Part shown: positions 38,097 to 59,132 of the stretch, piece after piece
How the letters are laid out: each line of letters starts with the position of its first letter
Numbering within the stretch: the first letter of the stretch is position 1
NCBI GenBank assembly: GCA_041178225.1
Contig: JBEGVV010000024.1
Location: 7,676 to 71,675 of the forward strand
DNA from: Pseudomonadota bacterium
Lineage (GTDB): Bacteria > Pseudomonadota > Alphaproteobacteria > CACIAM-22H2
Length of the DNA: 64,000 nt
Direction: 5' to 3'
The notes under the pieces: model-generated
Database searches by the model: none
The model's input: only the letters and a program-made list of their open reading frames with translations
What the model was told of the DNA's origin: nothing
Position numbers and translations under genes: made by a program

Positions 38097-38840
38097 TCAG
38101 GTGACCCACTGGTACCCGTCGATCTTGAAGTCCTGGCCCGACATGAAGTTCGGCTCGACCGTCGCGAGGAAGGCGACGAGCTGCGCGACGTCGGCCGGCG
38201 TGCCGAGGCGCCCGAGCGCGATGCCCTTGACCATCTCGGCGCCGCGCGAGCGCGTCAGGCTGTTGCCCAGCTCGGTCTGGATGACGCCCGGGCAGATGCA
38301 GTTGATCGCGATCTCCGGGCCCAGTTCCTTGGCGAGCGCGCGCGTCATGCCGATGATGCCGGCCTTCGCCGCCGCGTAGGCGAACTTCGACACCGCGCTC
38401 GTCACGCCGCCATTATGGGCGTTGAGCGACGACATGCTGACGATGCGGCCGGCGCCGCGGCGCTTCATTCCCGGCGCCGCGGCATGGATGAAGTTGAAGC
38501 AGCTCTTGAGGTTGATCGCGATCGTGCGATCGAACTCCTCCTCGGTGATCTCGAGCATGGGCTTGGGCATCGACTTGCCGGCGTTGTTGAGCAGGAAGTC
38601 GATGCCGCCCCACTCGCCCTCCACCTGCGCGACGATCGCCGCGGCGCGGGCGAAGTCGGCGACGTCGGCCACGTGGATCGACGCCCGGCGCCCCATCGCG
38701 CGGATCTCGCCGGCCGTGCGCTCCATCTCGGGCTCGAGCAGGTCGACGAGCGCGATGTCGAAGCCCTTCTCCGCCAGCGCGTGGGCGCATCCGCGCCCGA
38801 TGCCACGCGCGCCCCCCGTCACGATCGCGATCCTCGCCAT
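38097..38840 (-). CDS. SDR family oxidoreductase (3-oxoacyl-ACP reductase-like)
   Basis: MARIAIVTGGARGIGRG (TGxxxGxG), NNAG, and the catalytic S...YxxxK (SSLNAHNGG...YAAAKAG). The upstream extension of the track ORF is rejected. Confidence 0.8.
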   Translation of the reverse strand: MARIAIVTGGARGIGRGCAHALAEKGFDIALVDLLEPEMERTAGEIRAMGRRASIHVADVADFARAAAIVAQVEGEWGGIDFLLNNAGKSMPKPMLEITEEEFDRTIAINLKSCFNFIHAAAPGMKRRGAGRIVSMSSLNAHNGGVTSAVSKFAYAAAKAGIIGMTRALAKELGPEIAINCICPGVIQTELGNSLTRSRGAEMVKGIALGRLGTPADVAQLVAFLATVEPNFMSGQDFKIDGYQWVT

Positions 38841-44632: not shown

Positions 44633-46186
44633 ATGAGAAAGACAACGCTTCGCGCGATCGCCATGGCGGCGGCGGTCGCCCTCGCACCGGCGCTCGCGTC
44701 GGGCCAGGGACGCTACGTCCACGCCAACAACTCGCCCTTCGACAACCTCGACCCGCACGCGGTGTTCGACGTCGGCCGTGCCGCGTCGCGCATCAACATG
44801 TACGACGGGCTCTACCGCTGGGTGGACAACCCGCCGAAGATGATCCCGTGGCTGGCGGAGAGCCACACGGTCTCGCCGGATGGGCTCACCTATACCTTCA
44901 AGCTGCGCAAGGGCGTGAAGTTCCACGACGGCTCCGAGATGACCTCGGCCGACGTGGTCTACACGATGGAGCGCATGCTCGCGATGAAGAAGGGGCCCGC
45001 CGGCCTCTTCCTCGGCTCGATCCTGCCGGGCACGACCCAGGCGCCGGACCCGCACACCGTCGTCTTCAAGCTCAAGGAGCCGTCGGCGATCTTCCTGTCG
45101 ACGGTTCCGGAGATCCAGGTCGTCAACGCGAAGCTCGTCCAGCGCAACGTCAAGGACGGCGACCACGGCGAGGGCTGGCTCAGCCGCAATGGCGCGGGCA
45201 CGGGCTCGTTCATGCTGCGCCGCCATGATCCCGCGGTCGGCTTCATCGCGACGCGCTTCAAGGACCATTTCCACGGCTGGGAAGCGGGCAAGAAGTGGTT
45301 CGACGAGATCGAGTTCCGCTCGGTGCTCGACGTCAACACGCGCGTCCTCGGCCTGATCAAGGGCGACTTCCACGGTACCGACGGCTACCTGCCCTACGAC
45401 CAGATCGAGCGCCTGCGCAAGGAGTCGAACATCCAGATCCTCGAAGACGAGTCGATGCGCGTCTTCTACTTCGCCTTCAACATGTCCCGGCCGCCGTTCG
45501 ACAACGTCCATTTCCGGCGCGCGCTCAACTACGCCTTCGACTACAACGGCTTCATCAACGACATCCTGAAGGGCTCGGTCGCCCGCAACCCCAGCCCCAA
45601 CCCGAACAACCTCTGGGGCACGCCGAAGGACATCAAGGGCTACGAGTTCGACCTCGACAAGGCCAGGGCCGAGCTCGCCAAGGCCAACGTGCAGTTGCGC
45701 CCGATCACGATCAACCCGCTGGCGGGCTTCCCCGAGACGGAGCAGGCCGCGGTGCTCTTCGGCAACGCGCTGCGCAGGATCGGCATCGAGGCGCGCATCG
45801 AGGCCGCGCCGTGGAACATCGTGTCGGACCGCTTCCGCAACAAGGACACGATGCACGACATGGTCCCGCTCTGGAAGAGCACCTACTACGCGGATCCGAA
45901 CAACTGGGTCGGCGAGCTCTTCACCACGCGCCACCATGGCGGCCGCAACACGACCTGGTACAGCAACGCCGAGCTCGACCGCATCACGGACGAGGCGCTG
46001 AAGATCACCGACCAGGACGAGCGCGCGAAGCTCTACGACAAGGCGATCCGCCACATCGTCGACGAGGCCGTCGGCATCTTCGTCTACAACACGAAGTGGT
46101 TCGGCCCCTACTCGAACAGGATCGGCGGCATCCGCTTCTCCCCCATCGGCAATGGGCAGGAGATGCGCTGGGCCTACTTCAAGTAA
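44633..46186 (+). CDS. ABC transporter substrate-binding protein, family 5 (DppA-like)
   Basis: Signal peptide MRKTTLRAIAMAAAVALAPALASG. About 517 aa. Canonical AGGAGG SD 8 nt upstream. Confidence 0.85.
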   Translation: MRKTTLRAIAMAAAVALAPALASGQGRYVHANNSPFDNLDPHAVFDVGRAASRINMYDGLYRWVDNPPKMIPWLAESHTVSPDGLTYTFKLRKGVKFHDGSEMTSADVVYTMERMLAMKKGPAGLFLGSILPGTTQAPDPHTVVFKLKEPSAIFLSTVPEIQVVNAKLVQRNVKDGDHGEGWLSRNGAGTGSFMLRRHDPAVGFIATRFKDHFHGWEAGKKWFDEIEFRSVLDVNTRVLGLIKGDFHGTDGYLPYDQIERLRKESNIQILEDESMRVFYFAFNMSRPPFDNVHFRRALNYAFDYNGFINDILKGSVARNPSPNPNNLWGTPKDIKGYEFDLDKARAELAKANVQLRPITINPLAGFPETEQAAVLFGNALRRIGIEARIEAAPWNIVSDRFRNKDTMHDMVPLWKSTYYADPNNWVGELFTTRHHGGRNTTWYSNAELDRITDEALKITDQDERAKLYDKAIRHIVDEAVGIFVYNTKWFGPYSNRIGGIRFSPIGNGQEMRWAYFK

Positions 46187-46243
46187 CGAAAGGCGATCCC
46201 CTCCCTTGCCGCGACGCGGCGAGGGAGGGGATGATCCCCTGGC

Positions 46244-47251
46244 ATGAAGCGCATCGCGATCGTCCTCTCGAGGCTGCTCTGGTTCGTCCCGACGTTGCTC
46301 GGGCTGATCGCGCTCGTCTTCTCGATCTCGCACATCATCCCGGCGGACCCGGTCCGCGTCATCGCGGGCGACCAGGCGACGGCCGAGCAGATCGACGCCC
46401 TGCGCACGAAGCTCGGCCTCGACCGGCCGCTCTGGGAGCAGTTCCTGTCCTATCTCGCCCGCGTCGCCCAGGGCGACCTCGGCATGAGCCTCTTCAGCCA
46501 GCGCCCGATCGTCGAGGACCTCATGGCGCGCCTGCCCGCGACGCTCGAGCTGGGCATCAGCGCGGTGCTGCTGGCGGTCAGCGTCGGCGTGCCACTCGGC
46601 GTCGTGAGCGCCGTGTACCGGAACTCCCCGCTCGACCACGTCGTGCGCGTCGTCTCCGTCTCGGGCCTCGCCATCGCCAGCTTCTGGCTCGCCATGGAAC
46701 TCCAGCTCCTCTTCTCGATGAAGCTGGCCTGGACGCCCCTCTCCGGCAGGATCGCCGGCTTCCCCCCGGAGCCACGCTCGGGCTTCATGATCATCGACGC
46801 GCTCATGGACGGTGACCGCGAGGCGCTCGACAGCGCGCTGCGGCACCTGGCGCTGCCAACGCTGACGCTGGCCCTGCCCGCCGCCGCGCAGCTCGTGCGC
46901 CTGACGCGCGCGGGCGTGCTCGAGGTCATCAACTCCAACCACGTGCTCTACCAGCGCGCGATGGGCTTCCCGGCGCGCGTGATCGTCTGGAAGTACGTGC
47001 TGCGCGCCGCCATGACGGCGACGGTGACGCAGATCGGCCTGATCTTCGGCGTCTACGTGCTCGCGGGCGCGATCGTGGTCGAGACGGTCTTCGACTGGCC
47101 CGGCATCGGGCTCTTCGCGGTCAACTCGATCCTGCGCTCGGACTACAACGGCATCGTCGGCTTCACGATCTGGGCCGGCCTCATCTTCATCGTGGTGAAC
47201 CTGGTCGTCGACCTGGTCCACAGCTTCATCGACCCTCGGATCGTGCGATGA
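46244..47251 (+). CDS. ABC transporter permease (DppB-like)
   Basis: MKRIAIVLSRLLWFVPTLLGLIALVFSISHIIPADPVRV... (typical DppB N-terminus). 335 aa. Confidence 0.8.
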   Translation: MKRIAIVLSRLLWFVPTLLGLIALVFSISHIIPADPVRVIAGDQATAEQIDALRTKLGLDRPLWEQFLSYLARVAQGDLGMSLFSQRPIVEDLMARLPATLELGISAVLLAVSVGVPLGVVSAVYRNSPLDHVVRVVSVSGLAIASFWLAMELQLLFSMKLAWTPLSGRIAGFPPEPRSGFMIIDALMDGDREALDSALRHLALPTLTLALPAAAQLVRLTRAGVLEVINSNHVLYQRAMGFPARVIVWKYVLRAAMTATVTQIGLIFGVYVLAGAIVVETVFDWPGIGLFAVNSILRSDYNGIVGFTIWAGLIFIVVNLVVDLVHSFIDPRIVR

Positions 47252-48114
47252 GCGCGCCCCGCTTCGCCGTCCTGCGCCGCTTCCTGCGCGACCGCGCTTC
47301 CTTCCTCGGGGCGCTGATCGTCCTCGGCCTCGTGCTCTGCGCCATCCTGGCGCCCGTGATCGCCCCGCATCCCAACGACATCCACGACTTCCACACCGCC
47401 AACCGCCTCAAGCCGCCAAGCTGGACCAACCCGTTCGGCACGGACCGCATGGGCAGCGACCTGCTCTCGCGCATGCTCTTCGGCGCGCGCACGACGCTCA
47501 CGATCTGCGTCATCGCCGTCGGCATCGCCTGCATCGTCGGCATCCCGATCGGGCTGGTCGCGGGCTACTACCGCGGCTGGGTGTCGGAGATGCTGATGCG
47601 CATCGCCGAGATCTTCCTGTCCGTTCCGCAGATCGTGCTCGCGATCGCCATCTCCCAGACGCTCGGGCCCTCGATCGAGAACGTCGTGCTGTCGCTCGCG
47701 GCGTCGTTCTGGCCCTTCTGGGCGCGCCTTGCGTATGCCGAGACGCGCTCGGTCAAGAACGAGGTCTTCGTCGAATCCGCGGTCGCGCTGGGCTGCTCGG
47801 CGCCGCGCGTGATGCTGCTGCACATCCTGCCGAACATCGCCTCGCCGCTGATCGTACGCACCTCGATCGGCATGGGCGTCACCATCCTCAACGCCGCCGT
47901 GCTCGGCTTCCTCGGCCTCGGCGCGCCGCCCACGACGCCGGAATGGGGCAGGATGATCAACGAGGCGCGCGAGTTCCTGCCCGAGGCCTGGTGGTACGTG
48001 ACCTTCCCGGGCCTCGCGATCTTCTTCGTCGTGATGGGCTTCAACCTGCTTGGCGACGGCCTGCGCGACATACTCGACCCGCGCATCCGCCGCGGGGCGG
48101 CCCGCCGTGGCTGA
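47248..48114 (+). CDS. ABC transporter permease (DppC-like)
   Basis: 288 aa and hydrophobic. Overlaps the upstream stop. Confidence 0.8.
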   Translation: MSAPRFAVLRRFLRDRASFLGALIVLGLVLCAILAPVIAPHPNDIHDFHTANRLKPPSWTNPFGTDRMGSDLLSRMLFGARTTLTICVIAVGIACIVGIPIGLVAGYYRGWVSEMLMRIAEIFLSVPQIVLAIAISQTLGPSIENVVLSLAASFWPFWARLAYAETRSVKNEVFVESAVALGCSAPRVMLLHILPNIASPLIVRTSIGMGVTILNAAVLGFLGLGAPPTTPEWGRMINEAREFLPEAWWYVTFPGLAIFFVVMGFNLLGDGLRDILDPRIRRGAARRG

Positions 48115-49087
48115 GCCCCTCCTCTCCGTCCGCGAGCTCTCGCTCAGCTACCGCGTCGAGGCGGGCCTCGCCCGCGTGCTCGACGGCGTCAGCCTCTCGG
48201 TCGGCGCGGGCGAGATCGTCGGCCTCGTCGGCGAGTCCGGCTGCGGCAAGTCCACGCTCGGCCGCGCCGTCCTCGGCGCGCTGCCCCGCGGCAGCGTGGA
48301 GATCCATGGCGGCGCGGTGACGTTCCGCGGCCGCGACCTGCTCGCCATGCCCGAGGCCGAGGCCGCGCGCGAGATCCGCGGTCGCGCCATCACCCTCGTG
48401 CCGCAGGATCCCTTCACCTCCTTCAACCCGCTCTTCACGATCGGCACGCAGGTCCGCGACCTCGCGCGCTTCAAGCGCCCGGACCTCGCGAAGGCGAGGC
48501 GCGAGGCGCGCATCCTGGAGCTGCTCGACGCGGTCCAGCTGCCGCAGCCGCGCCAGATCCTCGACAAGTACCCGCACGAGGTCTCGGGCGGGCAGCGCCA
48601 GCGCCTGATGATCGCGATGGCGCTGCTGCCCGACCCGGCGATGATCGTCGCCGACGAGCCGACCACCGCGCTCGACGTGACGATCCAGGCGCAGATCCTC
48701 GGCCTGCTGCGCCGCCTCGCCAACGAGCATGGCTGCGCGGTGCTCTTCACGACCCACGACCTCGGCGCGGCCTACGAGATCTGCGACTCCATCGCGGTCA
48801 TGTATGCCGGCCAGAACGCCGAGGCCGCGCCGGTCGCGGACTTCTTCGACCGGCCGCGCCATCCCTACACGCGCGCGCTGCTCGGCAGCCTGCTCGACGG
48901 CAGCGGCCGGCTCCAGGGCATCCCCGGCGAGGTGCCCAGCCTCGTCACGCCCCCCGCGGGATGCCGCTTCGCGTCGCGCTGCGGGCGCGCGATCGACGCC
49001 TGCCGCGAGCGGCGTCCCGCCTTCGCGGATGCCGGCGGCGGCCACCTCCTCGCCTGCCACAATCCCGGGGAGCCCGCCGATGGCTGA
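48107..49087 (+). CDS. Oligopeptide-type ABC transporter ATP-binding protein (DppD-like), probable GTG start
   Basis: GESGCGKST Walker A, LSGGQRQR, and C-terminal Cys motif. The N-terminus in the ORF track is an extension. A GTG at about 48107 gives (M)[14 protein letters not shown], a typical start overlapping the permease stop. Confidence 0.7.
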
Positions 49088-50051
49088 GGCACAGGCGCCG
49101 ATCCTCGAGGTCCGGGGCCTCGGCAAGAGCTTCGACGTCCACGGCAGCTTCGGGCGCGTCAAGGCGCGGCTCCGGGCGGTCGACGACGTCAGCTTCTCGC
49201 TGGCCCGTGGCGAGGTGCTCGGCCTCGTCGGCGAATCAGGCTGCGGCAAGTCCACGCTCGGCAAGACGATCATGGGCATCCACGAGCCGACCGCGGGCGA
49301 GGTGCTCTTCGAGGGCAAGCGCATCGCGGGCGGCGGGTTCCGGCGCGACAATGCCATGCGCGCGCGCGTCCAGTACGCCTACCAGGATCCCGGCGCCTCG
49401 CTCGACCCGCGCTGGAAGCTGCGCGACTCCCTGCACGAGCCGCTGGTGGTCCACACGGACTGGCCGCGCGCGCGCCGCGACGAGCACGTGCGCGAGATCG
49501 TGCGCCTCGTGGGCCTGCCGGAGACGCATCTCGACCTCTACCCGCACGAGATCTCCGGCGGCCAGCAGCGGCGCGTCGGCCTCGCCCGCATCCTGACGCT
49601 GCGCCCCGAGGTCGTGGTGCTGGACGAGCCGACCTCGGGCCTCGACGTCTCCGTGCAGGCGACCGTGCTGACGCTGTTCCGCGACCTGCAGCGCGAGTTC
49701 GGCCTGACCTACATCCTCGTCAGCCACGACCTCGCCGTGGTGCGCACGATGTGCGACCGCGTGGCGGTGATGTATCTCGGGCGGATCGTCGAGATCGGGC
49801 CGACGGAGGAGATCTTCGCGCGACCGCAGCACCCCTACACGCGATCGCTGCTGGCGGCCACCCCGCGCATCGGCGGGCCGCGCATCGCGCGCGACTTCGC
49901 GCTCGGCGGCGAACCGCCGGATCCCGCGAACCTGCCCTCGGGCTGCCGCTTCCGCACGCGCTGCACCAAGGCGCAGCCCGGCTGCGCGGCGAGCGAGCCC
50001 GCGCTGCTCGAGGCCGGCGGCACGCGCGCGGCCTGCTTCCACCCGGGCTGA
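49080..50051 (+). CDS. Oligopeptide-type ABC transporter ATP-binding protein (DppF-like)
   Basis: [18 protein letters not shown]..., [17 protein letters not shown]. The ATG overlaps the upstream gene end. Confidence 0.8.
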   Translation: MAEAQAPILEVRGLGKSFDVHGSFGRVKARLRAVDDVSFSLARGEVLGLVGESGCGKSTLGKTIMGIHEPTAGEVLFEGKRIAGGGFRRDNAMRARVQYAYQDPGASLDPRWKLRDSLHEPLVVHTDWPRARRDEHVREIVRLVGLPETHLDLYPHEISGGQQRRVGLARILTLRPEVVVLDEPTSGLDVSVQATVLTLFRDLQREFGLTYILVSHDLAVVRTMCDRVAVMYLGRIVEIGPTEEIFARPQHPYTRSLLAATPRIGGPRIARDFALGGEPPDPANLPSGCRFRTRCTKAQPGCAASEPALLEAGGTRAACFHPG

Positions 50052-50064: not shown

Positions 50065-50916
50065 TCAGCCGAAGCCGTAGAGCGTCGCCGGGTTGTCGAC
50101 GAGCACGCGCCGCGCGGTGGCGTCGTCGCCCGCCCACTCGACGAAGCGGTCGAGCAGCACGGAGATGTCGGGCTTCACGGCCTCGGTCGGGTGCGGCCAG
50201 TCGGTCGCCCAGAGCATCCGCTCCGGCGCGAGGCGCAGGAACGCGCGGGTGAGCGCGCCGACATCCGCGTAGCCGGGCGGCCCGGAGCGCGAGAAATGGT
50301 AGCCGGCGCTCAGCTTCACCCATGTCCGGCCGCGCTCGACGAGCCCCGCCGCGACGGCGAAGGCCGGATGCGCCGCGCCATCGGGATGCGGGATGCGCCC
50401 GAAATGGTCTAGGACCATGGTCACGGGCAGCGCTTGAAGCCGCGGCGCCGCGTCGACGAGCAGGTCGGGATCGAGGTGGAGCTGCAGGTGCCAGCCCATC
50501 TCGTCCACGCGCGCCGCCAGGCGCTCGAGGCGCGCGACGTTGCCGCGCGACGGGCCCACGGCCTGCAGCCGGACGCCCACGACGCCGCCGCGGCCAAGCG
50601 CGGCGAGGTCGGACTTGTCCTCGTCGCCGGAGACCACGGCGATCGCCCGCGCGCGCCCCGCGCCGAGGCGCGCGACCGCGTCGAGCGTGCAGGCATTGTC
50701 GGTCCCGTAGACCGAGGGCTGGATGACGACGCTGCGCGCGAAGCCGATCCGCGCCCGGAAGGCGGCGTAGTCGTCCGCCGTCGCGTCGCCCGGGCGGTAC
50801 TGCGCGCCGGGCACGAGCGGGAACCGCCCGTCATAGACGTGGTGGTGGCAATCCGTGGCCCCCGGCGGCGCGCGATGCGCCGGCGCCGAGGGACGAGGCA
50901 GCCAGCCCTCGCTCAT
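50065..50916 (-). CDS. Amidohydrolase-2 family metal-dependent hydrolase (PF04909-like)
   Basis: 283 aa with DCHHHVY (HxH metal motif), a later DHFG, and WATDWPH, all typical of amidohydrolase_2. Its ATG overlaps the stop of the large upstream gene. Confidence 0.75.
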   Translation of the reverse strand: MSEGWLPRPSAPAHRAPPGATDCHHHVYDGRFPLVPGAQYRPGDATADDYAAFRARIGFARSVVIQPSVYGTDNACTLDAVARLGAGRARAIAVVSGDEDKSDLAALGRGGVVGVRLQAVGPSRGNVARLERLAARVDEMGWHLQLHLDPDLLVDAAPRLQALPVTMVLDHFGRIPHPDGAAHPAFAVAAGLVERGRTWVKLSAGYHFSRSGPPGYADVGALTRAFLRLAPERMLWATDWPHPTEAVKPDISVLLDRFVEWAGDDATARRVLVDNPATLYGFG

Positions 50917-53150
50917 GGCGCGAAGGGCGCGGGGTCGATGAAGCGCCGCACCACGTTGGTCATCATGCGCGTGAGCAGGTTGTCGTAGCCGTCGATCGGC
51001 AGCGCGCCGACGAAGTTCATCGACCCGACCGAGAAGACCGCGCCACCCGCGGGCGTCTCGAAGAACACCATGTCGGAGCGGATGAGGTCCTCGAGCGGCG
51101 CGGGCCAGAGGAAGCCGAGGCGATCCTCGTTCACCGGCTTGAACTGCGGGTGGTCGACGACGGCGCTCGCCACGATCAGCGCGTGGCGCGGCGAACCGAG
51201 CCGCGGGTCCCAGCGGTCGAGTTCGTGCCCGGCCGCGCCGCCGCCCATGAAGCCGCGCTCGCCGATCTGCGTGCCTGGCCGCAGTTCGCCCTCCAGCCCC
51301 TCCCGCAGGAAGGCCACGCGCGGGTCCGCGACCGCATCGTTCACGGTGTAGGGGAAGCCGAGATAGATGCCCTGCGCCGAGAACCCGTTGCCGACGAGCT
51401 TCTGCGCTGGGCGGCCGATCTTGCGCCACAGCCCGCCATAGGAGCCGTCGAAGGCGTGGTAGCTCTCGCCGACCTCGGTCGCCCAGGTGCGGATGCCGTT
51501 CTCCGCGCGCCTTATCTCGAGCGCCCAGGGCGCCTGCTTGTTGAAGACGGTCTTCCAGTAGAAGCCGTTGCCGCCGAGATACATGAGCCTCCCGCCGCGC
51601 GCGAGGTGCCCCTCGAGCCCGTCGAGCATCTCGGTCGTGTAGTACTCGGGATGCTGGCAGCAGATCACGAGGCTGTAGGGCTCGAGCAGCGCCGCGCCCT
51701 CCGCGTGCAGGTCGTGGTCGGTGACCACGTCGTGCGGGATGCCCTTGCGGGTCAGCCAGTCGACCACGTAGCTGTCGACATTGACCCAGTAGGCGCCGGA
51801 TCCGTACTCCGCGGGATCCATCATCTCGAAATGGTTCACGCGCTTGTCGATCATCGGCCGCGCCATGCTGGCCATGGAGACGCCGCTGCCGTCGCTATGG
51901 AAGTTGTAGGGCGACAGGCCGAGTTCCGGGTTCTCGTCGGGCGTGTGCGTGATCGCGCCCCATTCGAGCGCGCGCGCGCGGTTGTTGCGCCCCCAGCCCG
52001 GCCGCACGTAGTTGCCGTAGACATGGTAGGTGACGGTCGGCAGCAGGATCGCGACCTTCGCCTTCGGGGCGTCCGCGGCCGGGCGCACGACGAAGGGCAC
52101 GTTGTCGAAGCCGTTCGCGCTCTTCAGGTGGACGGCGTAGATGCCCGAGGGCCAGTCCGCGGGGATCTTGAACTCGAGCGCCGGCGTCCAGCCGACATCG
52201 CCGATGTCGTCGTCGTGGAAATGGATCGCGCCCCACTCCGCCGGCGCATGGGTCCAGCGATGCTCCGCGCCGGACCAGTTCGAGCCGGTCATGGCGCGCG
52301 TGGGCATGTTCTCCACCGTGCCGGAGAAGCCGTGCGGCCCGATATCCGCGACGTCCAGCGTCGGGATGCCGATGGAGAAGTCCCAGCAGGCGACGAGGCC
52401 GGGTGCCGTGCCGCGCGGCGTCGCGCCGCGCTGGGACGCGAGCGCGTCCTCCGCGCGGGGACCCGCCCAGATGCAGGGCCGCTCGACCTTGCCGTTGTAG
52501 TGGTGCGACGGCTTGCCCGTCGCATCGGCGGCGGCGAGCGCGGCGATCGTCGCGCGGCCGACGCCCGGCGCCGGCGCGGCGTGCAGCGCGACCGAGGCGG
52601 ACCCGGCATCGGCGAAGCCGGGATGCGCCTCGCGCGGCCGCTGGCCGACCGAGAGCGTGCCGGCCGCCGGGTCGATCACGAGGAAGACGTCATACCAGGC
52701 GCGCTCGACGAGGACCTTGCCCGTGGCGACGCGGGTCGCGCCTGACCCGTCCTCCATGCGGGCGACGACGCCATCGGCGTCGATCTCCAGCGAGAGCAGC
52801 GCGCCCCCGGCGCCGCGCCAGCTCGCGACCACCTGCCGACCCCGCGCCGGGGTGGTCGGCCAGATCGTGGCGCAGAGCACGAGGCCGCGCGCGCAGCCGG
52901 AAAGGTCGAGGAGCGGGATGCGCGCCCAGGACCCGAGATGCGTCTTCTGGTCGAGGCCGGGATGCGTGCCCGCCAGCGGATGCGGCATCGCGACCTCGCG
53001 ATAGCCGGGCCCGCGGGGATTGGGGTCGCCGCAGATGATCCGCGCGAAGCGTGCCTCGAACGGCGCGTCCCCGGCCGAGCTCACCATCAGGCGGATCGAC
53101 TCGCCCGGCTTCGCGCTCCAGCGGTCCACGTAACCCAGCAACGGATGCAT
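50913..53150 (-). CDS. Large (745 aa) protein resembling the N,N-dimethylformamidase large (beta) subunit family; assignment tentative
   Basis: Starts MHPLLGYVDRWSAKPGESIRLMVSS. The C-terminal part has a glutamine-amidotransferase-like/ThuA-like fold signature (LVICCQHPEYYT, YLGGNGFYWK). The DMFase-family call is from memory; the upper half of track ORF 50913..55028 is an artefact. Confidence 0.55.
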   Translation of the reverse strand: MHPLLGYVDRWSAKPGESIRLMVSSAGDAPFEARFARIICGDPNPRGPGYREVAMPHPLAGTHPGLDQKTHLGSWARIPLLDLSGCARGLVLCATIWPTTPARGRQVVASWRGAGGALLSLEIDADGVVARMEDGSGATRVATGKVLVERAWYDVFLVIDPAAGTLSVGQRPREAHPGFADAGSASVALHAAPAPGVGRATIAALAAADATGKPSHHYNGKVERPCIWAGPRAEDALASQRGATPRGTAPGLVACWDFSIGIPTLDVADIGPHGFSGTVENMPTRAMTGSNWSGAEHRWTHAPAEWGAIHFHDDDIGDVGWTPALEFKIPADWPSGIYAVHLKSANGFDNVPFVVRPAADAPKAKVAILLPTVTYHVYGNYVRPGWGRNNRARALEWGAITHTPDENPELGLSPYNFHSDGSGVSMASMARPMIDKRVNHFEMMDPAEYGSGAYWVNVDSYVVDWLTRKGIPHDVVTDHDLHAEGAALLEPYSLVICCQHPEYYTTEMLDGLEGHLARGGRLMYLGGNGFYWKTVFNKQAPWALEIRRAENGIRTWATEVGESYHAFDGSYGGLWRKIGRPAQKLVGNGFSAQGIYLGFPYTVNDAVADPRVAFLREGLEGELRPGTQIGERGFMGGGAAGHELDRWDPRLGSPRHALIVASAVVDHPQFKPVNEDRLGFLWPAPLEDLIRSDMVFFETPAGGAVFSVGSMNFVGALPIDGYDNLLTRMMTNVVRRFIDPAPFAP

Positions 53151-53297
53151 CTCTTCCCTCCGGCTCCCTCGCGCGGCGCGGCGCCGCTCCCTTTCCCGCA
53201 TCTTGCCACGGCGCGCGTCCCCGCCCAGAGTGGAACTTCGGATGGACGGGGCGCAGTGCCCCGGTCCGGCGGGGACAAGCAGAGGGGAGACAACGAG

Positions 53298-54878
53298 ATG
53301 ATTCGATCCACCACGGGCCTGCGCATGCTCGCGCTCGCCGGAACCGCGCTGTTCGGCATGGCGGGGACCGCCGCCGCGCAGGGCTTCGAGTGCCCGCGCA
53401 AGGGCGGCGACCTCGTGTTCGGCCTCGAGGCGCGCGTCGCGACGCTCGACCAGCACGCGACCAACGCCGCGGCGCCGCGCAACGTCACCATGAACATCTT
53501 CGAGTCTCTGCTGACGCGCGACGAGGGGATGAACCCGATGCTCGAGCTTGCGGAGTCCGTCTCCGAGAGCACCGACAAGCTCACCTACACCTTCAAGCTC
53601 AGGCAGGGCGCCCGCTTCCACAACGGCAAGCTCCTGACCGCGGACGACGTGGTCGCGTCGTTCAACCGCTACAAGCGCCTCGGCATCGACCGCTCGATCC
53701 TCGACCAGATCGCGAAGTGGGAGGCCGCCGACGCCTCGACCTTCGTCGTCACGCTCAAGGAGCCGCGCCCGATCTTCATGGAGACGTTCTCGGCCTTCAC
53801 CACGCCGATCGTCATCATCCCGAAGGAGCACGAGGACGCCGGCCCGCAGCAGCTGCCGATCATCGGCACCGGGCCCTTCCAGCTCGTCGAGTTCGTGGCC
53901 GACAGCCACGTCAAGCTCAAGCGCTTCGACGGCTACAAGGCCGACACCCGCCACAAGGACGTCGTGGGCTTCGGCGGCTCCAAGACCGCCTGCCTCGACA
54001 CGGTCACCTTCCGCATGATGACCGAGCCCGCGGCGCGCATCGCGGCGCTCGAGGCCGGCGAGATCCATGGCTCCGAGGACGTGCCGACGCTCATGCAGAA
54101 GCGGCTGGCGTCCAACGCGAACATCAAGCAGGCCAACCTGAACAGCTTCTGGCTGCACGTCACCTACCCGAACTTCTCCTTCCCGCCGACGGACAACGTG
54201 AAGTTCCGCCAGGCCGTCCAGGCCGCGATGGACATGGAGGAGATCATGGAGGCCGCGAGCGACGGCAACTTCAAGCTCCACCACGCCCTGCAGTTCAACG
54301 GCAGCGCCTACTACTCCGACGTCGGCAAGGAGCTCTACAACCAGAAGAACAAGGACAAGGCCAGGAAGCTGCTCCAGGAGGCCGGGTACAAGGGCGAGAA
54401 GGTGACGCTGCTCACCAACCGAGAGTACCAGAGCATGTACAACACCTCGGTCGTGATGGCCGAGCAGATGAAGGCCGTCGGCATCAACGCCGAGCTGCTG
54501 ATCCTCGACTGGCCCGCCGCGCTCGACATGAGCATGAAGAGGAACGACGGCTGGAACTTCTTCTTCACCGGCTGGATCACGGTGACGGCCTCGGGCGGCC
54601 AGCAGTCGCTGCGCTTCCTCGTCGAGCCGACCAACGTGCACCGGCCCAAGGACAACAAGACGAACCCGGAGTTCAAGCGGCTCTTCGACTCGATCGGCGC
54701 GACCGCGTCGCTCGACGATCGCAAGGCCGCCTTCGCCGCGGCACAGCGCATCGCCTACGACGACGTCATGGTGATCCCGATGGGCACGCTGCCCAAGGGC
54801 CAGGCCGTGCGCGCGAACGTCGAGAACTTCAAGCCTTACTACATCCCGCGCATGTCCAACGTCTGGCTCAGGAACTGA
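53298..54878 (+). CDS. ABC transporter substrate-binding protein, family 5, orphan (no adjacent permease or ATPase genes)
   Basis: Signal peptide MIRSTTGLRMLALAGTALFGMAGTAAAQG. About 526 aa, Lys-rich. The ATG at 53298 is preceded by GGGGAGA. Confidence 0.8.
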   Translation: MIRSTTGLRMLALAGTALFGMAGTAAAQGFECPRKGGDLVFGLEARVATLDQHATNAAAPRNVTMNIFESLLTRDEGMNPMLELAESVSESTDKLTYTFKLRQGARFHNGKLLTADDVVASFNRYKRLGIDRSILDQIAKWEAADASTFVVTLKEPRPIFMETFSAFTTPIVIIPKEHEDAGPQQLPIIGTGPFQLVEFVADSHVKLKRFDGYKADTRHKDVVGFGGSKTACLDTVTFRMMTEPAARIAALEAGEIHGSEDVPTLMQKRLASNANIKQANLNSFWLHVTYPNFSFPPTDNVKFRQAVQAAMDMEEIMEAASDGNFKLHHALQFNGSAYYSDVGKELYNQKNKDKARKLLQEAGYKGEKVTLLTNREYQSMYNTSVVMAEQMKAVGINAELLILDWPAALDMSMKRNDGWNFFFTGWITVTASGGQQSLRFLVEPTNVHRPKDNKTNPEFKRLFDSIGATASLDDRKAAFAAAQRIAYDDVMVIPMGTLPKGQAVRANVENFKPYYIPRMSNVWLRN

Positions 54879-54948: not shown

Positions 54949-56217
54949 ATGAACGAACGACCCAACCGCCCGCGCTTCCCCGGGGAAGGCGTTCCCCGCG
55001 AGCGGATACTGGCCGACCTCGCCGCCATGCAGGCTGGCGACGTCCCGGCCCATGGGTCGAGGAACCTGCGCCCGAACTACTACGTCGACGACGAGATCCT
55101 CGCGCTGATCGACGAGGTCTCCGCAAGGGTCGCGGAACAGAACGTCCTCTACGCCGGCAGCTCCTATCCCAGCATCGCGCGCATCGAGGCCGAGCTCGTC
55201 GAGATGGGCCTCGACCTGTTCGGCGCGCCGGTCGACGCCGCCGGCACCGTCACCACGGGCGGCAGCGAGAGCAACTTCCTCGCGGTGAAGGCCGCGCGCG
55301 ACCTCTTCGCCGCGCGCCGCGGCGGCGCAGGCGGCAGGCCAGAGCTCGTCCTCGCCCATACCGCGCATCCCTCCTTCGAGAAGGCCGCGCATTTCCTCGG
55401 CGTGCGCACCCGCCGCGCGAGCCGCAGCGTCGGCTTCGCCGCGGACGTCGAGGCGATGGCCGCGATGGCCGGGCCCGACACGATCATGATGGTGGGCTCC
55501 GCCCCGCCGGCCGCCTACGGGCAGGCCGACCCGATCCGCGAGCTCGCCACGATCGCGGCGCGCCACGGCATCTGGTTCCACGTCGATTCCTGCATGGGCG
55601 GGTTCTTCCTGCCCTTCGCGCGCGAACTCGGCGAGCCGGTGCCGGACTTCGACTTCCGCGTGCCAGGCGTGTGGTCGCTTTCCGCCGACCTGCACAAGTT
55701 CGGCTACGCGCCCAAGGGCGCCTCGCTGCTCCTGCTCGCCGACCGCGCGCATCTCGCCTTCCAGGAATACCGCTTCGAGGACTGGCCCTGGGGCCTCTAC
55801 GCCACCGCCGGCTTCTCCGGCTCGCGCCCCGCGGCGCCGGTGGTCGCGGCATGGAGCGTGATGCGCCGCCTCGGCAGGCGCGGCTACCTCGACGTCACGC
55901 GCCGTACCCTCGCCGTGAAGCACCGGCTCATGGACGGCGTGCGCGCCATCCCCGGCCTCGGCGTCGTCGGCCGGCCCGACGCCGCGCATTTCTTCGTCTT
56001 CGGCGATGGCCTCGACGCCTACGCCGTGGAGGAAGGCCTCTCGGCGCGTGGATGGGCGCTCGCGCGCGCGCGGCTGCCGGATTCCTTCCAGGTCTGGCCG
56101 GGCATCCCGCACGAGCAGAGCGCGGGCGAGTTCCTCGCTGACCTCGCCGAGGTCGCGGCGCAGGTGCGCGAGGCGGGCACGCGCTCGGCCGATCGCGCGG
56201 CGGTCTACGCGCGCTGA
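54949..56217 (+). CDS. PLP-dependent decarboxylase, group II (glutamate decarboxylase / sphingosine-phosphate-lyase-like fold type I)
   Basis: SADLHKFGYAPKG (PLP-Lys in the HK motif), TGGSESN, and HVDSCMGG. 422 aa. Confidence 0.75.
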   Translation: MNERPNRPRFPGEGVPRERILADLAAMQAGDVPAHGSRNLRPNYYVDDEILALIDEVSARVAEQNVLYAGSSYPSIARIEAELVEMGLDLFGAPVDAAGTVTTGGSESNFLAVKAARDLFAARRGGAGGRPELVLAHTAHPSFEKAAHFLGVRTRRASRSVGFAADVEAMAAMAGPDTIMMVGSAPPAAYGQADPIRELATIAARHGIWFHVDSCMGGFFLPFARELGEPVPDFDFRVPGVWSLSADLHKFGYAPKGASLLLLADRAHLAFQEYRFEDWPWGLYATAGFSGSRPAAPVVAAWSVMRRLGRRGYLDVTRRTLAVKHRLMDGVRAIPGLGVVGRPDAAHFFVFGDGLDAYAVEEGLSARGWALARARLPDSFQVWPGIPHEQSAGEFLADLAEVAAQVREAGTRSADRAAVYAR

Positions 56218-56224: not shown

Positions 56225-56962
56225 CTAGGCGCCGATCTCCGCGAAGAGCCGGCCCCAGCCGCGGACGCGTCGCGCATCGACGCCGGCTCGGCGCAGGCTG
56301 CCCCAGAGCGCGGTCGCGACGCTGTCCAGCACGAGGACGCCGAGTTCGCGCTCCAGCGCCTCGACGACCGGCGCGCCCCGCATGTTCGTGCACAGCACGA
56401 CGACGGCCTGCGGGCGCGCCTTCGCGACCTCGCGCACGAGGCCCGCGATCGTCTCCCCGGAATACTCGGAGAAGGAGAAGTTGCCGCGGTCGCGCAGGTG
56501 CCGCTCCGCGACGCACTCGAAGCCCTCGCGCGCGAGGTTCGGCAGGATCCGCTCCTGGATCTCGTCGAGATAGGGCGTCACCAGCCCGTAGCGCGTCACG
56601 CCCGCGAGGCGGAAGATCTCCGCCAGCGCGAGGACCGAGGTCGTCGCGCCTATCCCCGTGCGCGCCTCGATCGCGGCGCAGAGCGCGCGGTCGCGGTCGA
56701 GCCCGAGCCAGCTCGCCGAGGTGCCGTTCCACGCGATCGAGGCAACGCGCGCGTCGGCGAGCAGGTCGCAGGCGGCGAGGATGGGCTCGAGGTCGAACTG
56801 GCCGAGAGCCTGGTCGCGCATCGAGATCTCGGTCACGCGGAAGCGCGCGAAATGCGCGGTGACGTCGGGCAGGCCAGAGAGCATCGCCGCGGTGACCGGC
56901 TCGAGCACCGTGTTCGATGACGGCGTCAGCATGCCAAGGAGCGTGCGCGGGCCCGGCGCCAT
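56225..56962 (-). CDS. Asp/Glu/hydantoin racemase superfamily protein (maleate isomerase / arylmalonate decarboxylase-like)
   Basis: GMLTPSSNTVLEP, and later LCTNM (catalytic Cys context). 245 aa. Confidence 0.7.
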   Translation of the reverse strand: MAPGPRTLLGMLTPSSNTVLEPVTAAMLSGLPDVTAHFARFRVTEISMRDQALGQFDLEPILAACDLLADARVASIAWNGTSASWLGLDRDRALCAAIEARTGIGATTSVLALAEIFRLAGVTRYGLVTPYLDEIQERILPNLAREGFECVAERHLRDRGNFSFSEYSGETIAGLVREVAKARPQAVVVLCTNMRGAPVVEALERELGVLVLDSVATALWGSLRRAGVDARRVRGWGRLFAEIGA

Positions 56963-56965
56963 GCC

Positions 56966-57724
56966 TCAGCCCTTGCCGCCGCCATCGCCGCGCAGCGCCG
57001 CGGCGAGCGCGTCGCCGATGCCGGTGCTCTCGCGCCCCGCGGGCGCGGCGAATGCCCCAGTCCGCGCCTTCGCGGCGCCGAGCCGGACCAGCGCCTCGGC
57101 CTGGCGGAAGGCGGCGGCCACGCCCTCGACGACCGGCACGACGCAGCGGGGCTGCAGGCGCGGCCCCGCCCCGGCCATGACCGCGCCGCTGATCACCGCC
57201 ACCTCGATGCCGTCGCGCTCGGCCATGTCGTTGATCGCGTCGGCGACCTGTGCGTCGACCGCGAGCGCGCCCTCGGGCGTGTAGACCGCGCGCGAGTCGA
57301 CGACGCGCCACGCCGCGAGCCGCGCGCCAAAGCCGTGCCCCTCGATCAGCGTGCGGTAGAGGGCCATCGAGCGCGCGTCGAAGGTGACGAAGCCGAAGCG
57401 GCCGCCGAGCTGGCGCGCGGTCAGCAGCGCCGCCTCGGTCATCGCGACGACCGGGATGGGCAGCAGCTCGCGCCCGGCGCGCAGGCCCGTGTCCCAGGAG
57501 ACGGCGACCAGCACCGCGTCGCAGCCCGGCGCGTGCCGCGCCATGAGCTCCACGGCAGCGTGCTCGCCAATGGCCATCTCGGTCCACGTCCCGATCACCC
57601 GGCCGCCGAAGCTGCCCGTGGCCTCGACGATCTCGGTGCCCGGCGAGGCCATGGCGCGCACGGCATCCGCCACGCGCCGGGTGACGAACTCCGACGTGTT
57701 GGCGTTGAGGACCAGCAGCCGCAC
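56966..57724 (-). CDS. Asp/Glu/hydantoin racemase family protein (HyuE-like), probable GTG start
   Basis: Conserved core begins (V/M)RLLVLNANTSEFVTRRVADAV. The upstream ATG at 57826 would overlap the amidase gene by 86 nt, so the GTG at about 57724, leaving a 16-nt gap, is preferred. Confidence 0.6.
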   Translation of the reverse strand: MRLLVLNANTSEFVTRRVADAVRAMASPGTEIVEATGSFGGRVIGTWTEMAIGEHAAVELMARHAPGCDAVLVAVSWDTGLRAGRELLPIPVVAMTEAALLTARQLGGRFGFVTFDARSMALYRTLIEGHGFGARLAAWRVVDSRAVYTPEGALAVDAQVADAINDMAERDGIEVAVISGAVMAGAGPRLQPRCVVPVVEGVAAAFRQAEALVRLGAAKARTGAFAAPAGRESTGIGDALAAALRGDGGGKG

Positions 57725-57740
57725 GCGGGCGCCCTGCCGC

Positions 57741-59132
57741 TCAGCCCTTGGGCATCGCGAAGGGCGCCAGCGCCTCGTAGGCCCGCGCCGCGCGCAGCAC
57801 CAGCGCGTCGGCGTAGCGCGCGCCAACGACCTGAAGCCCGATCGGCAGGCCCGCGGAGGTGAAGCCGCAGGGCACGCTCGCGGCCGGGTGGCCGGTGAAG
57901 TTGAACGGGAAGTGGAACGGGGCCCAGTCGAGCCACTCCTTCATCCCGCTGCCCGGTGGCACCTCGTGGCCGACCTCGAAGGCCGGCACGGAGAGGCTGG
58001 GCGTCAGCAGGAGGTCATGGCTCTCCATGAACGCGTTCATCCTGCGCCCCAGCGCGTCGCGCGCGCCCCAGGCGCGCAGCAGCTCCATGCCCGTCGTGGT
58101 CCGGCCACGCGCGGAGAAGCGCACGTAGCCGGGATCCATCAGCGAGCGCTTCTCCGGCGCGACGGACTCCACGGTCAGCGCCATGTTGGTGACGTAGAAG
58201 AGCTCCATCGGCTCGCGGCAATCCTCGATGCCGGGATCCACCTCCTCGACGATCGCGCCGAGCTCGGCGAAGCGATGCGCCGCGGCGCGGACCGCGGCCG
58301 CGATCTCCGGGTCGACGTTGCGCACGTAGCCGAGCGTCGGGCTGTAGGCGACGCGCAGGCCGCGCACCCCGGCCTCGAGGCCGACGCGGTAGTCGCGGAC
58401 ATCGGGCGGCGGCGCGAGCCAGTCGCGCGCGTCGGGCCGCGCCATGACGGAGAGCATCAGCGCCGCGTCCTCGACCGTGCGCGTCAGCGGCCCGGTATGC
58501 GACTGCATCGGCAGGGCGCCATAGGGCCAGGCCGGGACGCGGGCATAGGTGGGCTTGAGGCCGAACACGCCGCAGAAGGTCGCGGGCATGCGCACCGAGC
58601 CGGCGCCGTCGGACCCGTGGTGCAGGAAGCCCATGTTGAGGGCGGCGCAGACGCCCGCGCCGCTGCTCGAGCCGCCGGCGGTCTTGCTGCGGTCCCAGGG
58701 ATTGCGCGTGAGGCCGGTCAGCGGCGAATCGCTCGTCCCCTTCCATCCGAATTCCGGCATCGTCGTCTTGCCGAGCAGGATCGCGCCCTCCTCGCGCAGC
58801 CGCGCGACCGCGGGCGCGTCGTCGGGGGCGACCTCGTCGGGCGAGGTGGTGCGCGAGCCGCGCCGCCAGCCCCAGCCCTTCACCGGCCACTGGTCCTTGA
58901 TGGTCGTCGGGATGCCGTCGACGAGGCCAGCCGGCCTCCCCTTCGCCCATCGCGCCTCGGACGCCCGCGCGGCCTCGAGCGCTTCCTCGGGCTTCAGCAC
59001 GCAGAAGGCGTTGTGCGCGGGATCGAGGGCGCCGATGCGGTCGTAGACCGACTTCGTCACCTCGACGGGCGAGAGCTTCCTCGCCCGGTACAGCCGCAGC
59101 AGCTCGGCGGCGGTCAGCGTCGCGATGTCCAT
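57741..59132 (-). CDS. Amidase (amidase-signature family)
   Basis: GGSSSGAG and the surrounding AS-family Ser-cisSer-Lys context (KDQW...TTMPEFGW..GGSSSGAGV). 463 aa. Confidence 0.8.
   Translation of the reverse strand: MDIATLTAAELLRLYRARKLSPVEVTKSVYDRIGALDPAHNAFCVLKPEEALEAARASEARWAKGRPAGLVDGIPTTIKDQWPVKGWGWRRGSRTTSPDEVAPDDAPAVARLREEGAILLGKTTMPEFGWKGTSDSPLTGLTRNPWDRSKTAGGSSSGAGVCAALNMGFLHHGSDGAGSVRMPATFCGVFGLKPTYARVPAWPYGALPMQSHTGPLTRTVEDAALMLSVMARPDARDWLAPPPDVRDYRVGLEAGVRGLRVAYSPTLGYVRNVDPEIAAAVRAAAHRFAELGAIVEEVDPGIEDCREPMELFYVTNMALTVESVAPEKRSLMDPGYVRFSARGRTTTGMELLRAWGARDALGRRMNAFMESHDLLLTPSLSVPAFEVGHEVPPGSGMKEWLDWAPFHFPFNFTGHPAASVPCGFTSAGLPIGLQVVGARYADALVLRAARAYEALAPFAMPKG

What the first reader, a model, noticed from the sequence alone, without database searches (positions are those of the whole stretch)
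50065..53150. DMFase-large-subunit-like 745-aa protein co-translated with an amidohydrolase-2 enzyme, with no DMFase small subunit present
Seen in sequence: the large gene's stop overlaps the start of the downstream amidohydrolase_2 gene (HxH...D metal motifs). Nothing resembling the roughly 130-aa DMFase alpha subunit is adjacent. Established knowledge (from memory, so tentative): characterised N,N-dimethylformamidase is an alpha2beta2 enzyme whose large subunit carries a mononuclear Fe site. Many stand-alone homologs of unknown function exist. Inference: this is a different amide or ester hydrolase pair, possibly acting on a methylated amide, given the surrounding methylamine context.
Basis: partly seen in the sequence, partly recalled or inferred. 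Interest (0 to 1): 0.5.

Follow-up and report, generated by a model that had tools for sequence, protein, structure and literature searches.

The report
Stand-alone DMFase-family iron amidase with lactonase partner
This is a real two-gene operon: an iron amide-hydrolase of the dimethylformamidase/N-acyl-beta-amino-acid acylase family that needs no small subunit, followed by a LigI-type lactonase-like enzyme; it is an uncharacterised but fairly ordinary member of a large, known enzyme family.

Summary
Window 50913-53150 (-) encodes a 745-aa protein with a full DMFA2_C domain (E 6e-87). Its TGA stop overlaps the ATG of a 283-aa Amidohydro_2 gene (50065-50916, -). No DMFase small subunit is detectable anywhere in the 64 kb.

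All six DMFase active-site residues are kept: Y378, Y415, H500, E502, N528, E643. However, the protein is not a DMFase orthologue. Its closest solved relative is the stand-alone N-acetyl-(R)-beta-phenylalanine acylase (41% identity, against 35% to DMFase). It belongs to a third, alphaproteobacterial clade that lacks small subunits and usually sits beside Opp/Dpp-type ABC importers.

The downstream enzyme is LigI-like (cog3618 lactonase type), with the catalytic residues kept but the substrate-binding residues changed.

The pairing is tight but narrow. It occurs only among relatives at least 75% identical, and there it is universal. In that sub-lineage it belongs to an amidase, racemase, DMFase-like, lactonase-like module that lies next to an MttB/dimethylglycine-dehydrogenase-like operon.

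Best reading: a homodimeric Fe amidase/acylase acting on an imported natural amide. The substrate is unknown. This is a new member of a known kind, of modest interest.

The parts
50913..53150 (-). DMFase-beta/acylase-family amidohydrolase, 745 aa (called DMFA2L here). Three domains: Ig-like, pentraxin/LamG-like, and catalytic domain III.
   Evidence: Pfam DMFA2_C E 6e-87. PDB 8huy E 4e-158 and 6lvb E 3e-117. AF2 model pTM 0.80; Foldseek TM 0.83 to 8i5a and 0.81 to 6lvb.
52017..52019 (-). Codon of Y378, equivalent to DMFase Fe ligand Y399.
   Evidence: Alignment; numbering checked; invariant in 20 homologues.
51906..51908 (-). Codon of Y415, equivalent to DMFase Fe ligand Y440.
51645..51653 (-). 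H500-P-E502, equivalent to DMFase essential H519 and Fe ligand E521.
51567..51569 (-). Codon of N528, equivalent to DMFase N547 (oxyanion/water).
51222..51224 (-). Codon of E643, equivalent to DMFase Glu657 (proposed catalytic base; E657A is inactive).
50913..50916 (-). ATGA stop/start overlap that couples the two genes.
   Evidence: ATGA or GTGA is conserved in 7 of 9 related loci; the other two have gaps of about 10 and 70 nt.
50065..50916 (-). cog3618/LigI-like Amidohydro_2 hydrolase, 283 aa (called AH2 here), probably a lactonase.
   Evidence: Pfam E 1e-47. LigI 4d8l E 3e-46, 36% identity. D22, H24, H26, R116, H171 and D239 are kept; LigI R130 and Y156 are replaced. NCBIfam 4-sulfomuconolactone hydrolase scores 156 bits against a cutoff of 500.
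53151..53297 (.). Divergent intergenic region between DMFA2L and the SBP gene. It holds the GGAGG ribosome-binding site of DMFA2L.
   Evidence: No consensus sigma-70 promoter or operator-like repeat was found.
53298..54878 (+). SBP_bac_5 (cluster C) solute-binding protein, divergent from DMFA2L.
   Evidence: Pfam E 6e-77. Gene called as 526 aa on identical contigs. Conserved at the same place in L005 and the P0004 contig. No close liganded structure.
54949..56217 (+). PLP enzyme, 422 aa, that Pfam calls Pyridoxal_deC. It is closest to sphingosine-1-phosphate lyases.
   Evidence: Pfam. PDB 5eud/3mad E 2e-89 against E 1e-22 for decarboxylases.
56225..59132 (-). Operon of amidase-signature amidase (57741-59132), allantoin/hydantoin-racemase-like (56966-57724) and arylmalonate decarboxylase/maleate isomerase-like (56225-56962).
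   Evidence: In L092 and L009 the Amidase and Rac genes lie directly upstream of DMFA2L on the same strand.
44633..50051 (+). Opp/Dpp-type ABC importer (SBP, two permeases, two ATPases), convergent with AH2. The two stop codons are 13 nt apart.
29163..38254 (.). DAO-GCV_T, MttB, 2OG-Fe(II) oxygenase, MttB and acyl-CoA dehydrogenase (all +), then MFS (-). This block is syntenic with the genes that directly follow AH2 in L092.
   Evidence: 74-85% identical orthologues in the same order.

Best explanation
DMFA2L is a cytoplasmic, stand-alone (most likely homodimeric) non-haem Fe(III) amidohydrolase of the DMFase-beta / N-acyl-beta-amino-acid acylase fold. A water molecule activated at a 2-Tyr-1-Glu iron site (Y378, Y415, E502) attacks the carbonyl of a secondary or tertiary amide. 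H500, the base E643 and the oxyanion residue N528 assist. I infer that the substrate is a small natural N-acyl or N-formyl amino compound taken up by an Opp/Dpp-type ABC importer. It is not dimethylformamide. In this sub-lineage only, the gene is translationally coupled to a LigI-type (cog3618) hydrolase that most likely opens a lactone in the same pathway. Both genes belong to an amidase, racemase, DMFA2L, AH2 catabolic module. Shown here: family, fold, catalytic residues, absence of a small subunit, gene coupling and its phylogenetic range. Inferred: oligomeric state, metal, substrate class, and that the two enzymes act in one pathway.
For: Family and fold.

Six DMFase active-site residues are conserved here and invariant in 20 homologues.

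Identity is 41% to the stand-alone acylase and 35% to DMFase. The catalytic motifs (NxHSDGSG, GGNGFYW) look acylase-like. An NJ tree puts the protein in a separate alphaproteobacterial clade W. Small-subunit genes occur only in the DMFase-side clade.

The small subunit is absent from the window and from the acylase PDB entries.

16 of 22 clade-W loci have an SBP_bac_5/Opp component within about 3 kb. In L011, L014 and L017 the gene sits directly upstream of the permease genes.

AH2 keeps the LigI catalytic residues.

Every DMFA2L at least 75% identical with readable downstream sequence has AH2 next to it. Every AH2 orthologue at least 67% identical has DMFA2L directly upstream, even though the flanking genes differ between loci.

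Neither protein has an obvious signal peptide (read from the sequences).
Against: No substrate evidence of any kind exists, and no experiment has been done on any clade-W member.

The AF2 model has low confidence around the active-site loops (residues 374-382, 412-417, 527-594), so the pocket could not be analysed.

The DMFase large subunit alone is inactive, so activity without a partner rests on analogy with the acylase.

The pairing with AH2 may simply reflect shared ancestry in a shallow lineage.

The metal-independence of LigI and the lactonase-only record of cog3618 come from my memory; the papers are not in the held library.
Confidence: 0.6

Rival explanations
1. The enzyme hydrolyses a methylated amide (N-methyl or N,N-dimethyl amide, or an N-formyl or N-acyl derivative of a methylated amine). 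The released methylamine-type product then feeds the neighbouring MttB / dimethylglycine-dehydrogenase-like demethylation operon.
For: In L092 (81% identical) the pair is followed by MFS and then by ACAD, MttB, 2OG oxygenase, MttB and DAO-GCV_T, from about 1 kb downstream. The window keeps the same block in the same order (29163-38254), separated from the pair only by a roughly 12 kb insertion. L005 also has MttB and DAO-GCV_T 5-9 kb downstream. The window also carries a corrinoid protein, RACo and another MttB.
Against: The MttB operon is a separate, convergent transcription unit. The L005 MttB and DAO-GCV_T are paralogues (40-43% identity), not orthologues. The P0004 contig has no MttB within 8 kb. 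No other clade-W locus has MttB nearby, and only 1 of roughly 65 other family loci does. These genomes are rich in MttB genes (three in this window), so chance adjacency is plausible. The protein is closer to the acylase than to DMFase.
Confidence: 0.17
2. DMFA2L and AH2 form an obligate hetero-oligomer in which AH2 replaces the stabilising role of the DMFase small subunit. On this view the translational coupling serves stoichiometric assembly rather than a shared pathway.
For: ATGA or GTGA overlap is conserved in 7 of 9 related loci. The two genes co-occur strictly, in both directions, within the sub-lineage. The DMFase large subunit is inactive and less stable without its partner.
Against: Relatives 63-73% identical lack AH2 altogether, as do the 48-57% clade-W loci that keep every catalytic residue. 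The acylase has only large chains A and B listed in its PDB entries. AH2 keeps a complete catalytic set of its own. L005 and L097 have uncoupled junctions.
Confidence: 0.1
3. It is a genuine N,N-dimethylformamidase (EC 3.5.1.56) whose small subunit is encoded elsewhere in the genome.
For: Public databases name the homologues 'N,N-dimethylformamidase'. The active-site residues are identical. F680 aligns with the DMFase gating residue F693.
Against: Identity to DMFase is only 35% and the protein lies in a different clade. In all loci with a small subunit, that gene lies directly upstream of the large one. The source is environmental metagenomes and MAGs, not DMF-polluted sites. F680 is His in most clade-W members. 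AceAB shows that even close two-subunit relatives may not use DMF.
Confidence: 0.04

Closest known systems
N-acetyl-(R)-beta-phenylalanine acylase (PDB 8HUY, 8I59, 8I5A; I recall the source as Burkholderia sp. AJ110349, and the paper is not in the held library)
   Same: Same three-domain fold (Foldseek TM 0.83). Best sequence match among solved structures (E 4e-158, 41% identity). All catalytic residues are shared. It is stand-alone: only chains A and B are listed, and no small-subunit-like chain was found.
   Different: It is not an orthologue. The window protein sits in a separate clade. The substrate is unknown. The genomic context of the acylase could not be examined. The acylase has no known coupled cog3618 partner.
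N,N-dimethylformamidase DmfA1A2 (Paracoccus, Methylobacterium; PDB 6LVB)
   Same: Same fold (TM 0.81) and the same Fe ligands Y/Y/E plus H, N and E. Same Pfam family, DMFA2_C.
   Different: DMFase is alpha2beta2, and its large subunit alone is inactive. Here there is no small subunit, identity is 35%, the clade is different, and the context is ABC importer, amidase and racemase genes rather than LuxR-dmfA1-dmfA2 on a plasmid.
AceAB acetamiprid amidase (Pigmentiphaga sp. D-2)
   Same: It is a member of the DMFase family that hydrolyses a C-N bond in a substrate other than DMF. This shows that substrate range in the family is broad.
   Different: It has two subunits like DMFase and acts on a xenobiotic. 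I did not compare sequences because none is held.
LigI, 2-pyrone-4,6-dicarboxylate lactonase (PDB 4D8L), and cog3618 lactonases. This comparison concerns the downstream gene.
   Same: Amidohydro_2 fold, 36% identity, E 3e-46. The catalytic residues D, H, H, R, H and D are all aligned and conserved.
   Different: LigI R130 and Y156 are replaced by P122 and H147; I recall these as substrate-binding residues. The score is below the NCBIfam cutoff for 4-sulfomuconolactone hydrolase. No protocatechuate 4,5-cleavage genes were noticed nearby.

Membership tests
Pfam PF20254 DMFA2_C (DMFase beta-subunit-like family) | Score above the Pfam gathering threshold over the whole domain | tested here: met
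   292.9 bits against a cutoff of 27; profile positions 1-373 of 374.
DMFase-fold iron amidohydrolases | 2-Tyr-1-carboxylate Fe ligands (Y399, Y440, E521) plus H519, N547 and E657 | tested here: met
   Y378, Y415, E502, H500, N528 and E643 align with them (numbering verified). They are invariant in 20 homologues.
DMFase-fold iron amidohydrolases | Iron actually bound and hydrolytic activity present | not testable with these tools
   Needs purified protein, with metal analysis and an activity assay.
N,N-dimethylformamidase (EC 3.5.1.56, DmfA1A2) | Small alpha subunit of about 130 aa encoded directly upstream, giving an alpha2beta2 enzyme | tested here: not met
   No hit at E<=10 in the window with tblastn, a 2-sequence HMM or a 6-sequence HMM. 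The upstream gap is a 147-nt divergent intergenic region.
N,N-dimethylformamidase (EC 3.5.1.56, DmfA1A2) | Orthology with characterised DMFase large subunits | tested here: not met
   35% identity. The protein is in a separate NJ clade from L086, L087 and 6lvb.
N-acetyl-(R)-beta-phenylalanine acylase | Stand-alone large chain without a small subunit | tested here: met
N-acetyl-(R)-beta-phenylalanine acylase | Orthology and the same substrate | tested here: not met
   41% identity. The acylase groups with a different large clade. Substrate is not testable here.
cog3618 / LigI-like lactonases (downstream gene) | Amidohydro_2 fold with the LigI catalytic residues D29, H31, H33, R124, H180 and D248 | tested here: met
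   D22, H24, H26, R116, H171 and D239 are conserved in all orthologues. The 4dia entry carries N at the position of D248, consistent with this being the catalytic Asp.
LigI (2-pyrone-4,6-dicarboxylate lactonase) proper / 4-sulfomuconolactone hydrolase | Substrate-binding residues R130 and Y156; NCBIfam equivalog cutoff | tested here: not met
   R130 becomes P122 and Y156 becomes H147. The score is 156 bits against a cutoff of 500.
Conserved two-gene module (DMFA2-like plus Amidohydro_2) | Pairing conserved across the family | tested here: not met
   The pairing appears only in relatives at least 75% identical (window, L005, L006, L092, L094-L098, the P0004 contig). It is absent at 63-73% (L007, L088-L091, L093) and in all loci at 38-57%.

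The most novel reading that the evidence does not exclude
The amidase, racemase, DMFA2L, cog3618-hydrolase module may be an undescribed catabolic route for a natural amide that also carries, or yields, a lactone. It has an SBP5/S1P-lyase-like cassette and a syntenic MttB/2OG/DAO-GCV_T operon. Candidate substrates are an N-acyl homoserine-lactone-type, pantothenate-type or betaine-derived compound. The route would be linked to quaternary-amine demethylation in freshwater Alphaproteobacteria, and it would reveal a natural, pre-industrial function of the DMFase fold.
Probability: 0.15. Interest if true: 0.55.

Novelty: new member of a known kind. Interest (0 to 1): 0.3.

Why it matters
Databases label thousands of these proteins 'N,N-dimethylformamidase', yet DMF is a synthetic solvent. 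The natural substrates of the family are almost entirely unknown. This locus belongs to an uncharacterised alphaproteobacterial clade that keeps the unusual 2-Tyr-1-Glu iron site, works without the small subunit, and is usually wired to peptide/opine-type importers. Finding its substrate would correct a widespread mis-annotation, including in ocean metaproteomes where 'DmfA' is counted as an ammonifying enzyme. It would also show what the DMFase fold evolved to do. The specific pairing with a lactonase-type enzyme offers a useful handle for substrate discovery, but it is confined to one narrow lineage.

Tried and rejected
1. Literature. The acylase paper (AJ110349, 8HUY) is not in the held library. 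The LigI and cog3618 papers could not be read. Statements on LigI metal-independence and residue roles therefore rest on my memory.

2. NCBIfam has no model for the large protein.

3. The plasmid collection has no close relative (best 41.5%). It was useful only for fetching authentic dmfA1 genes.

4. The promoter/terminator scan and the inverted-repeat search of the divergent intergenic region gave nothing above chance.

5. The adjacent SBP has no close liganded structure, so there is no hint about the ligand.

6. AH2 homologues at about 50% identity mostly sit before MFS_3 transporters, which is uninformative.

7. I started a home-made gene caller to gather Pfam statistics on neighbours. I abandoned it because it missed known genes such as the SBP in L088, and used tblastn with the window's proteins plus the precomputed gene calls instead.

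8. I considered specific substrate guesses from scattered context: AHLs, pantothenate, N-methylhydantoin/creatinine, ergothioneine, homoserine betaine. None has direct support, so I do not put any of them forward as the explanation.

9. A literature search for co-mentions of these enzyme types found nothing relevant.

10. The pseudogene or non-coding reading is rejected. GC3 is 0.94, the ORFs are intact, and the catalytic residues are invariant.
Full report
**1. The observation**

The window has about 72% G+C, so long spurious ORFs are common. The two genes are nevertheless well defined.
- The minus-strand ORF ending at 50913 is open as far back as 55028, but the real start is the ATG at 53150 (MHPLLGYVDRW...).
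- That start has a GGAGG about 10 nt upstream. It matches the N-terminus of 20 homologues (consensus MxPLTGYVDRWS). The region further upstream is occupied by a plus-strand SBP gene.
- The product is 745 aa with GC3 0.94.
- Pfam gives one hit, DMFA2_C, at E 6.2e-87 over the whole model.
- The junction reads GCGCC-ATGA-GCG, so the TGA stop overlaps the ATG of a 283-aa Amidohydro_2 gene at 50065-50916 (E 1.2e-47).

**2. Iron site and fold**

The Paracoccus DMFase papers identify these residues:

| Role in DMFase | DMFase residue | Window residue |
|---|---|---|
| Fe(III) ligand | Y399 | Y378 |
| Fe(III) ligand | Y440 | Y415 |
| Fe(III) ligand | E521 | E502 |
| Essential | H519 | H500 |
| Binds a buried water / stabilises the oxyanion | N547 | N528 |
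| Proposed base (E657A inactive) | Glu657 | E643 |

- I rebuilt the 6LVB and 8HUY sequences from the HMMER alignments and confirmed that chain numbering equals paper numbering.
- All six window residues are invariant in an alignment of 20 homologues at 52-95% identity.
- An AlphaFold2 model (pLDDT 78, pTM 0.80) matches the acylase 8I5A at TM 0.83 and DMFase 6LVB at TM 0.81. The next hits are pentraxin/LamG domains, as expected for domain II.
- The model is poorly defined around the active-site loops, so I could not analyse the pocket.

**3. Which relative is closest**

- Among solved structures the best match is not DMFase. It is N-acetyl-(R)-beta-phenylalanine acylase (8HUY/8I59/8I5A), at E 4e-158 and 531 bits. 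DMFase scores E 3e-117 and 396 bits.
- Over a common alignment the identity is 41% to the acylase and 35% to DMFase.
- The acylase entries list only chains A and B. The DMFase small subunit matches only the 6LV*/7W8J entries.

**4. Small subunit**

- I took authentic dmfA1 genes from Paracoccus aminophilus pAMI2 and Methylobacterium sp. DM1 pLVM1.
- Neither tblastn nor hmmsearch --max found anything in any six-frame ORF of 40 aa or more in the window at E<=10.
- The same search did find divergent small-subunit genes directly upstream of the large gene in four genome loci (L046, L067, L070, L076). I added these to the HMM and searched again, and still found nothing in the window.
- In an NJ tree of 83 large proteins, those four loci fall with DMFase.
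- The acylase falls in a second, large and diverse clade.
- The window protein falls in a third clade ('W'), made of L005-L020 and L044, all annotated as Alphaproteobacteria. No member of clade W has a small subunit. The tree has no support values.
- A published survey agrees that stand-alone is the rule: 952 genomes carry large-subunit homologues and only 41 carry a small subunit.

**5. The downstream enzyme**

- Its best solved relatives are LigI (2-pyrone-4,6-dicarboxylate lactonase, E 3e-46, 36% identity) and unassigned cog3618 proteins.
- LigI D29, H31, H33, R124, H180 and D248 align with D22, H24, H26, R116, H171 and D239. These are conserved in all orthologues.
- LigI R130 and Y156 are replaced by P122 and H147.
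- The NCBIfam 4-sulfomuconolactone hydrolase model scores far below its cutoff.
- From memory, marked as such: LigI needs no metal, and the characterised cog3618 enzymes are lactonases.
- The partner is therefore more likely a lactone hydrolase with an unknown substrate than a second amidase.

**6. How conserved the pairing is**

- The exact protein occurs on ENA metagenome contigs with identical context.
- A 95% relative is in the MAG 'Alphaproteobacteria bacterium ZE-Oct18-107'.
- I ran tblastn of the window's neighbours against 80 genome loci and used nine look-ups of called genes. AH2 lies directly downstream only where the large protein is at least 75% identical: the window, L005, L006, L092 and the P0004 contig.
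- AH2 is absent at 63-73% identity (L007, L088-L091, L093) and in all loci at 38-57%.
- In the reverse direction I scanned metagenomes with AH2. Orthologues at least 67% identical (L094-L098) always have the large gene directly upstream. Homologues at 52% or below never do.
- The junction is ATGA or GTGA in 7 of 9 loci and a short gap in the other two.
- The coupling is therefore strict but phylogenetically shallow. It is not a property of the family.

**7. Wider context**

- In the close sub-lineage the conserved order is Amidase (amidase-signature family), then allantoin/hydantoin-racemase-like, then an optional arylmalonate-decarboxylase/maleate-isomerase-like gene, then DMFA2L, then AH2.
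- In some members a cassette on the opposite strand is inserted before DMFA2L. It consists of an SBP_bac_5 gene and a PLP enzyme.
- Pfam calls that PLP enzyme a decarboxylase, but it is far closer to sphingosine-1-phosphate lyases (E 2e-89 against 1e-22).
- Across clade W the recurrent neighbour is an Opp/Dpp-type ABC importer. 16 of 22 loci have one within about 3 kb. In L011, L014 and L017 the amidase gene directly precedes the permease genes.
- Together with the lack of a signal peptide, this points to cytoplasmic hydrolysis of an imported small amide.

**8. The 'methylamine context'**

- The window does carry RACo, a corrinoid protein, three MttB-family genes and two DAO-GCV_T genes.
- In the 81% relative L092, AH2 is followed by MFS and then by ACAD, MttB, 2OG oxygenase, MttB and DAO-GCV_T.
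- The window has 74-85% identical orthologues of all of these in the same order at 29163-38254. They are separated from AH2 by a roughly 12 kb block of IclR, hydantoinase A/B, SDR and Opp ABC genes.
- This is conserved synteny. However, it involves separate transcription units and is limited to the same shallow lineage.
- The MttB and DAO-GCV_T genes in L005 are paralogues of the window's.
- The P0004 contig has none.
- No other clade-W locus has MttB nearby.
- A methylated-amide substrate remains a live but minority hypothesis.

**9. Verdict**

- The finding is real and the family assignment is correct.
- The protein is best described as a stand-alone, acylase-like member of the DMFase-fold iron amidohydrolases, from an uncharacterised alphaproteobacterial clade. 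It is coupled, in one narrow lineage, to a LigI-type hydrolase.
- It is a new member of a known kind. The substrate is unknown, and several concrete experiments could settle it.

Noticed in passing
window 54949-56217 (+): Pfam and NCBIfam present this 422-aa PLP enzyme as a group II decarboxylase (MfnA-like, below cutoff). It is much closer to sphingosine-1-phosphate lyases (PDB 5eud/3mad E 2e-89, against 1e-22 for decarboxylases). Its match begins at residue 65 of the 514-aa lyase chain, so it lacks the lyase's N-terminal segment. It is conserved with the SBP gene next to the DMFase-like gene in L005 and the P0004 contig.
   Followed up: partly
window 29163-38254, compared with L092:11128-18241: The block DAO-GCV_T, MttB (31607-33136), 2OG-Fe(II) oxygenase, MttB (34222-35706), acyl-CoA dehydrogenase, then MFS is syntenic with L092, where it directly follows the amidase/lactonase pair. 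The window carries a roughly 12 kb insertion (about 38.1-50.06 kb: SDR, IclR, hydantoinase A/B, SDR, Opp ABC) between the two.
   Followed up: partly
window 8321-23463: There is a corrinoid-dependent methyltransferase set: RACo activase (8321-10924, -), B12-binding protein (11294-12214, -), DAO-GCV_T (12102-14567), M24 peptidase, and a third MttB (21670-23463). This suggests quaternary-amine demethylation.
   Followed up: no
window 16259-21899, 44633-50051, 53298-54878, 59196-63756: At least four separate SBP_bac_5/Opp-type ABC transporter gene sets lie in one 64 kb window.
   Followed up: no
L046:7614-7937, L067:7627-7998, L070:3244-3588, L076:656-958: Divergent homologues of the DMFase small subunit lie directly upstream of large-subunit genes that are only 40-45% identical to DMFase. 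The small-subunit homologues have weak first-pass scores (E 3e-5 to 4). After one HMM iteration they score E 1e-38 to 1e-53, though those scores partly reflect their own inclusion in the model; L076, not in the model, reached 4e-19. This extends the two-subunit branch well beyond known DMFases and AceAB.
   Followed up: partly
window 39776-43835 (+): A hydantoinase A/B (ATP-dependent oxoprolinase/N-methylhydantoinase family) gene pair with an IclR regulator and an SDR lies inside the inserted block. It is conserved in L095 and L098 but absent from L092.
   Followed up: no
window 50913-53150 (-), residues 374-382, 412-417, 527-594, 636-642, 673-683: AlphaFold2 gives pLDDT below 50 for exactly the loops that carry the invariant metal ligands and catalytic residues, while the rest of the protein is confident. 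This may be because the site needs iron and the dimer partner, or because the alignment had only 20 sequences.
   Followed up: no
window 50052-50064: AH2 and the last ATPase gene of the Opp operon converge, with only 13 nt between their stop codons. No terminator-like hairpin was found there.
   Followed up: partly
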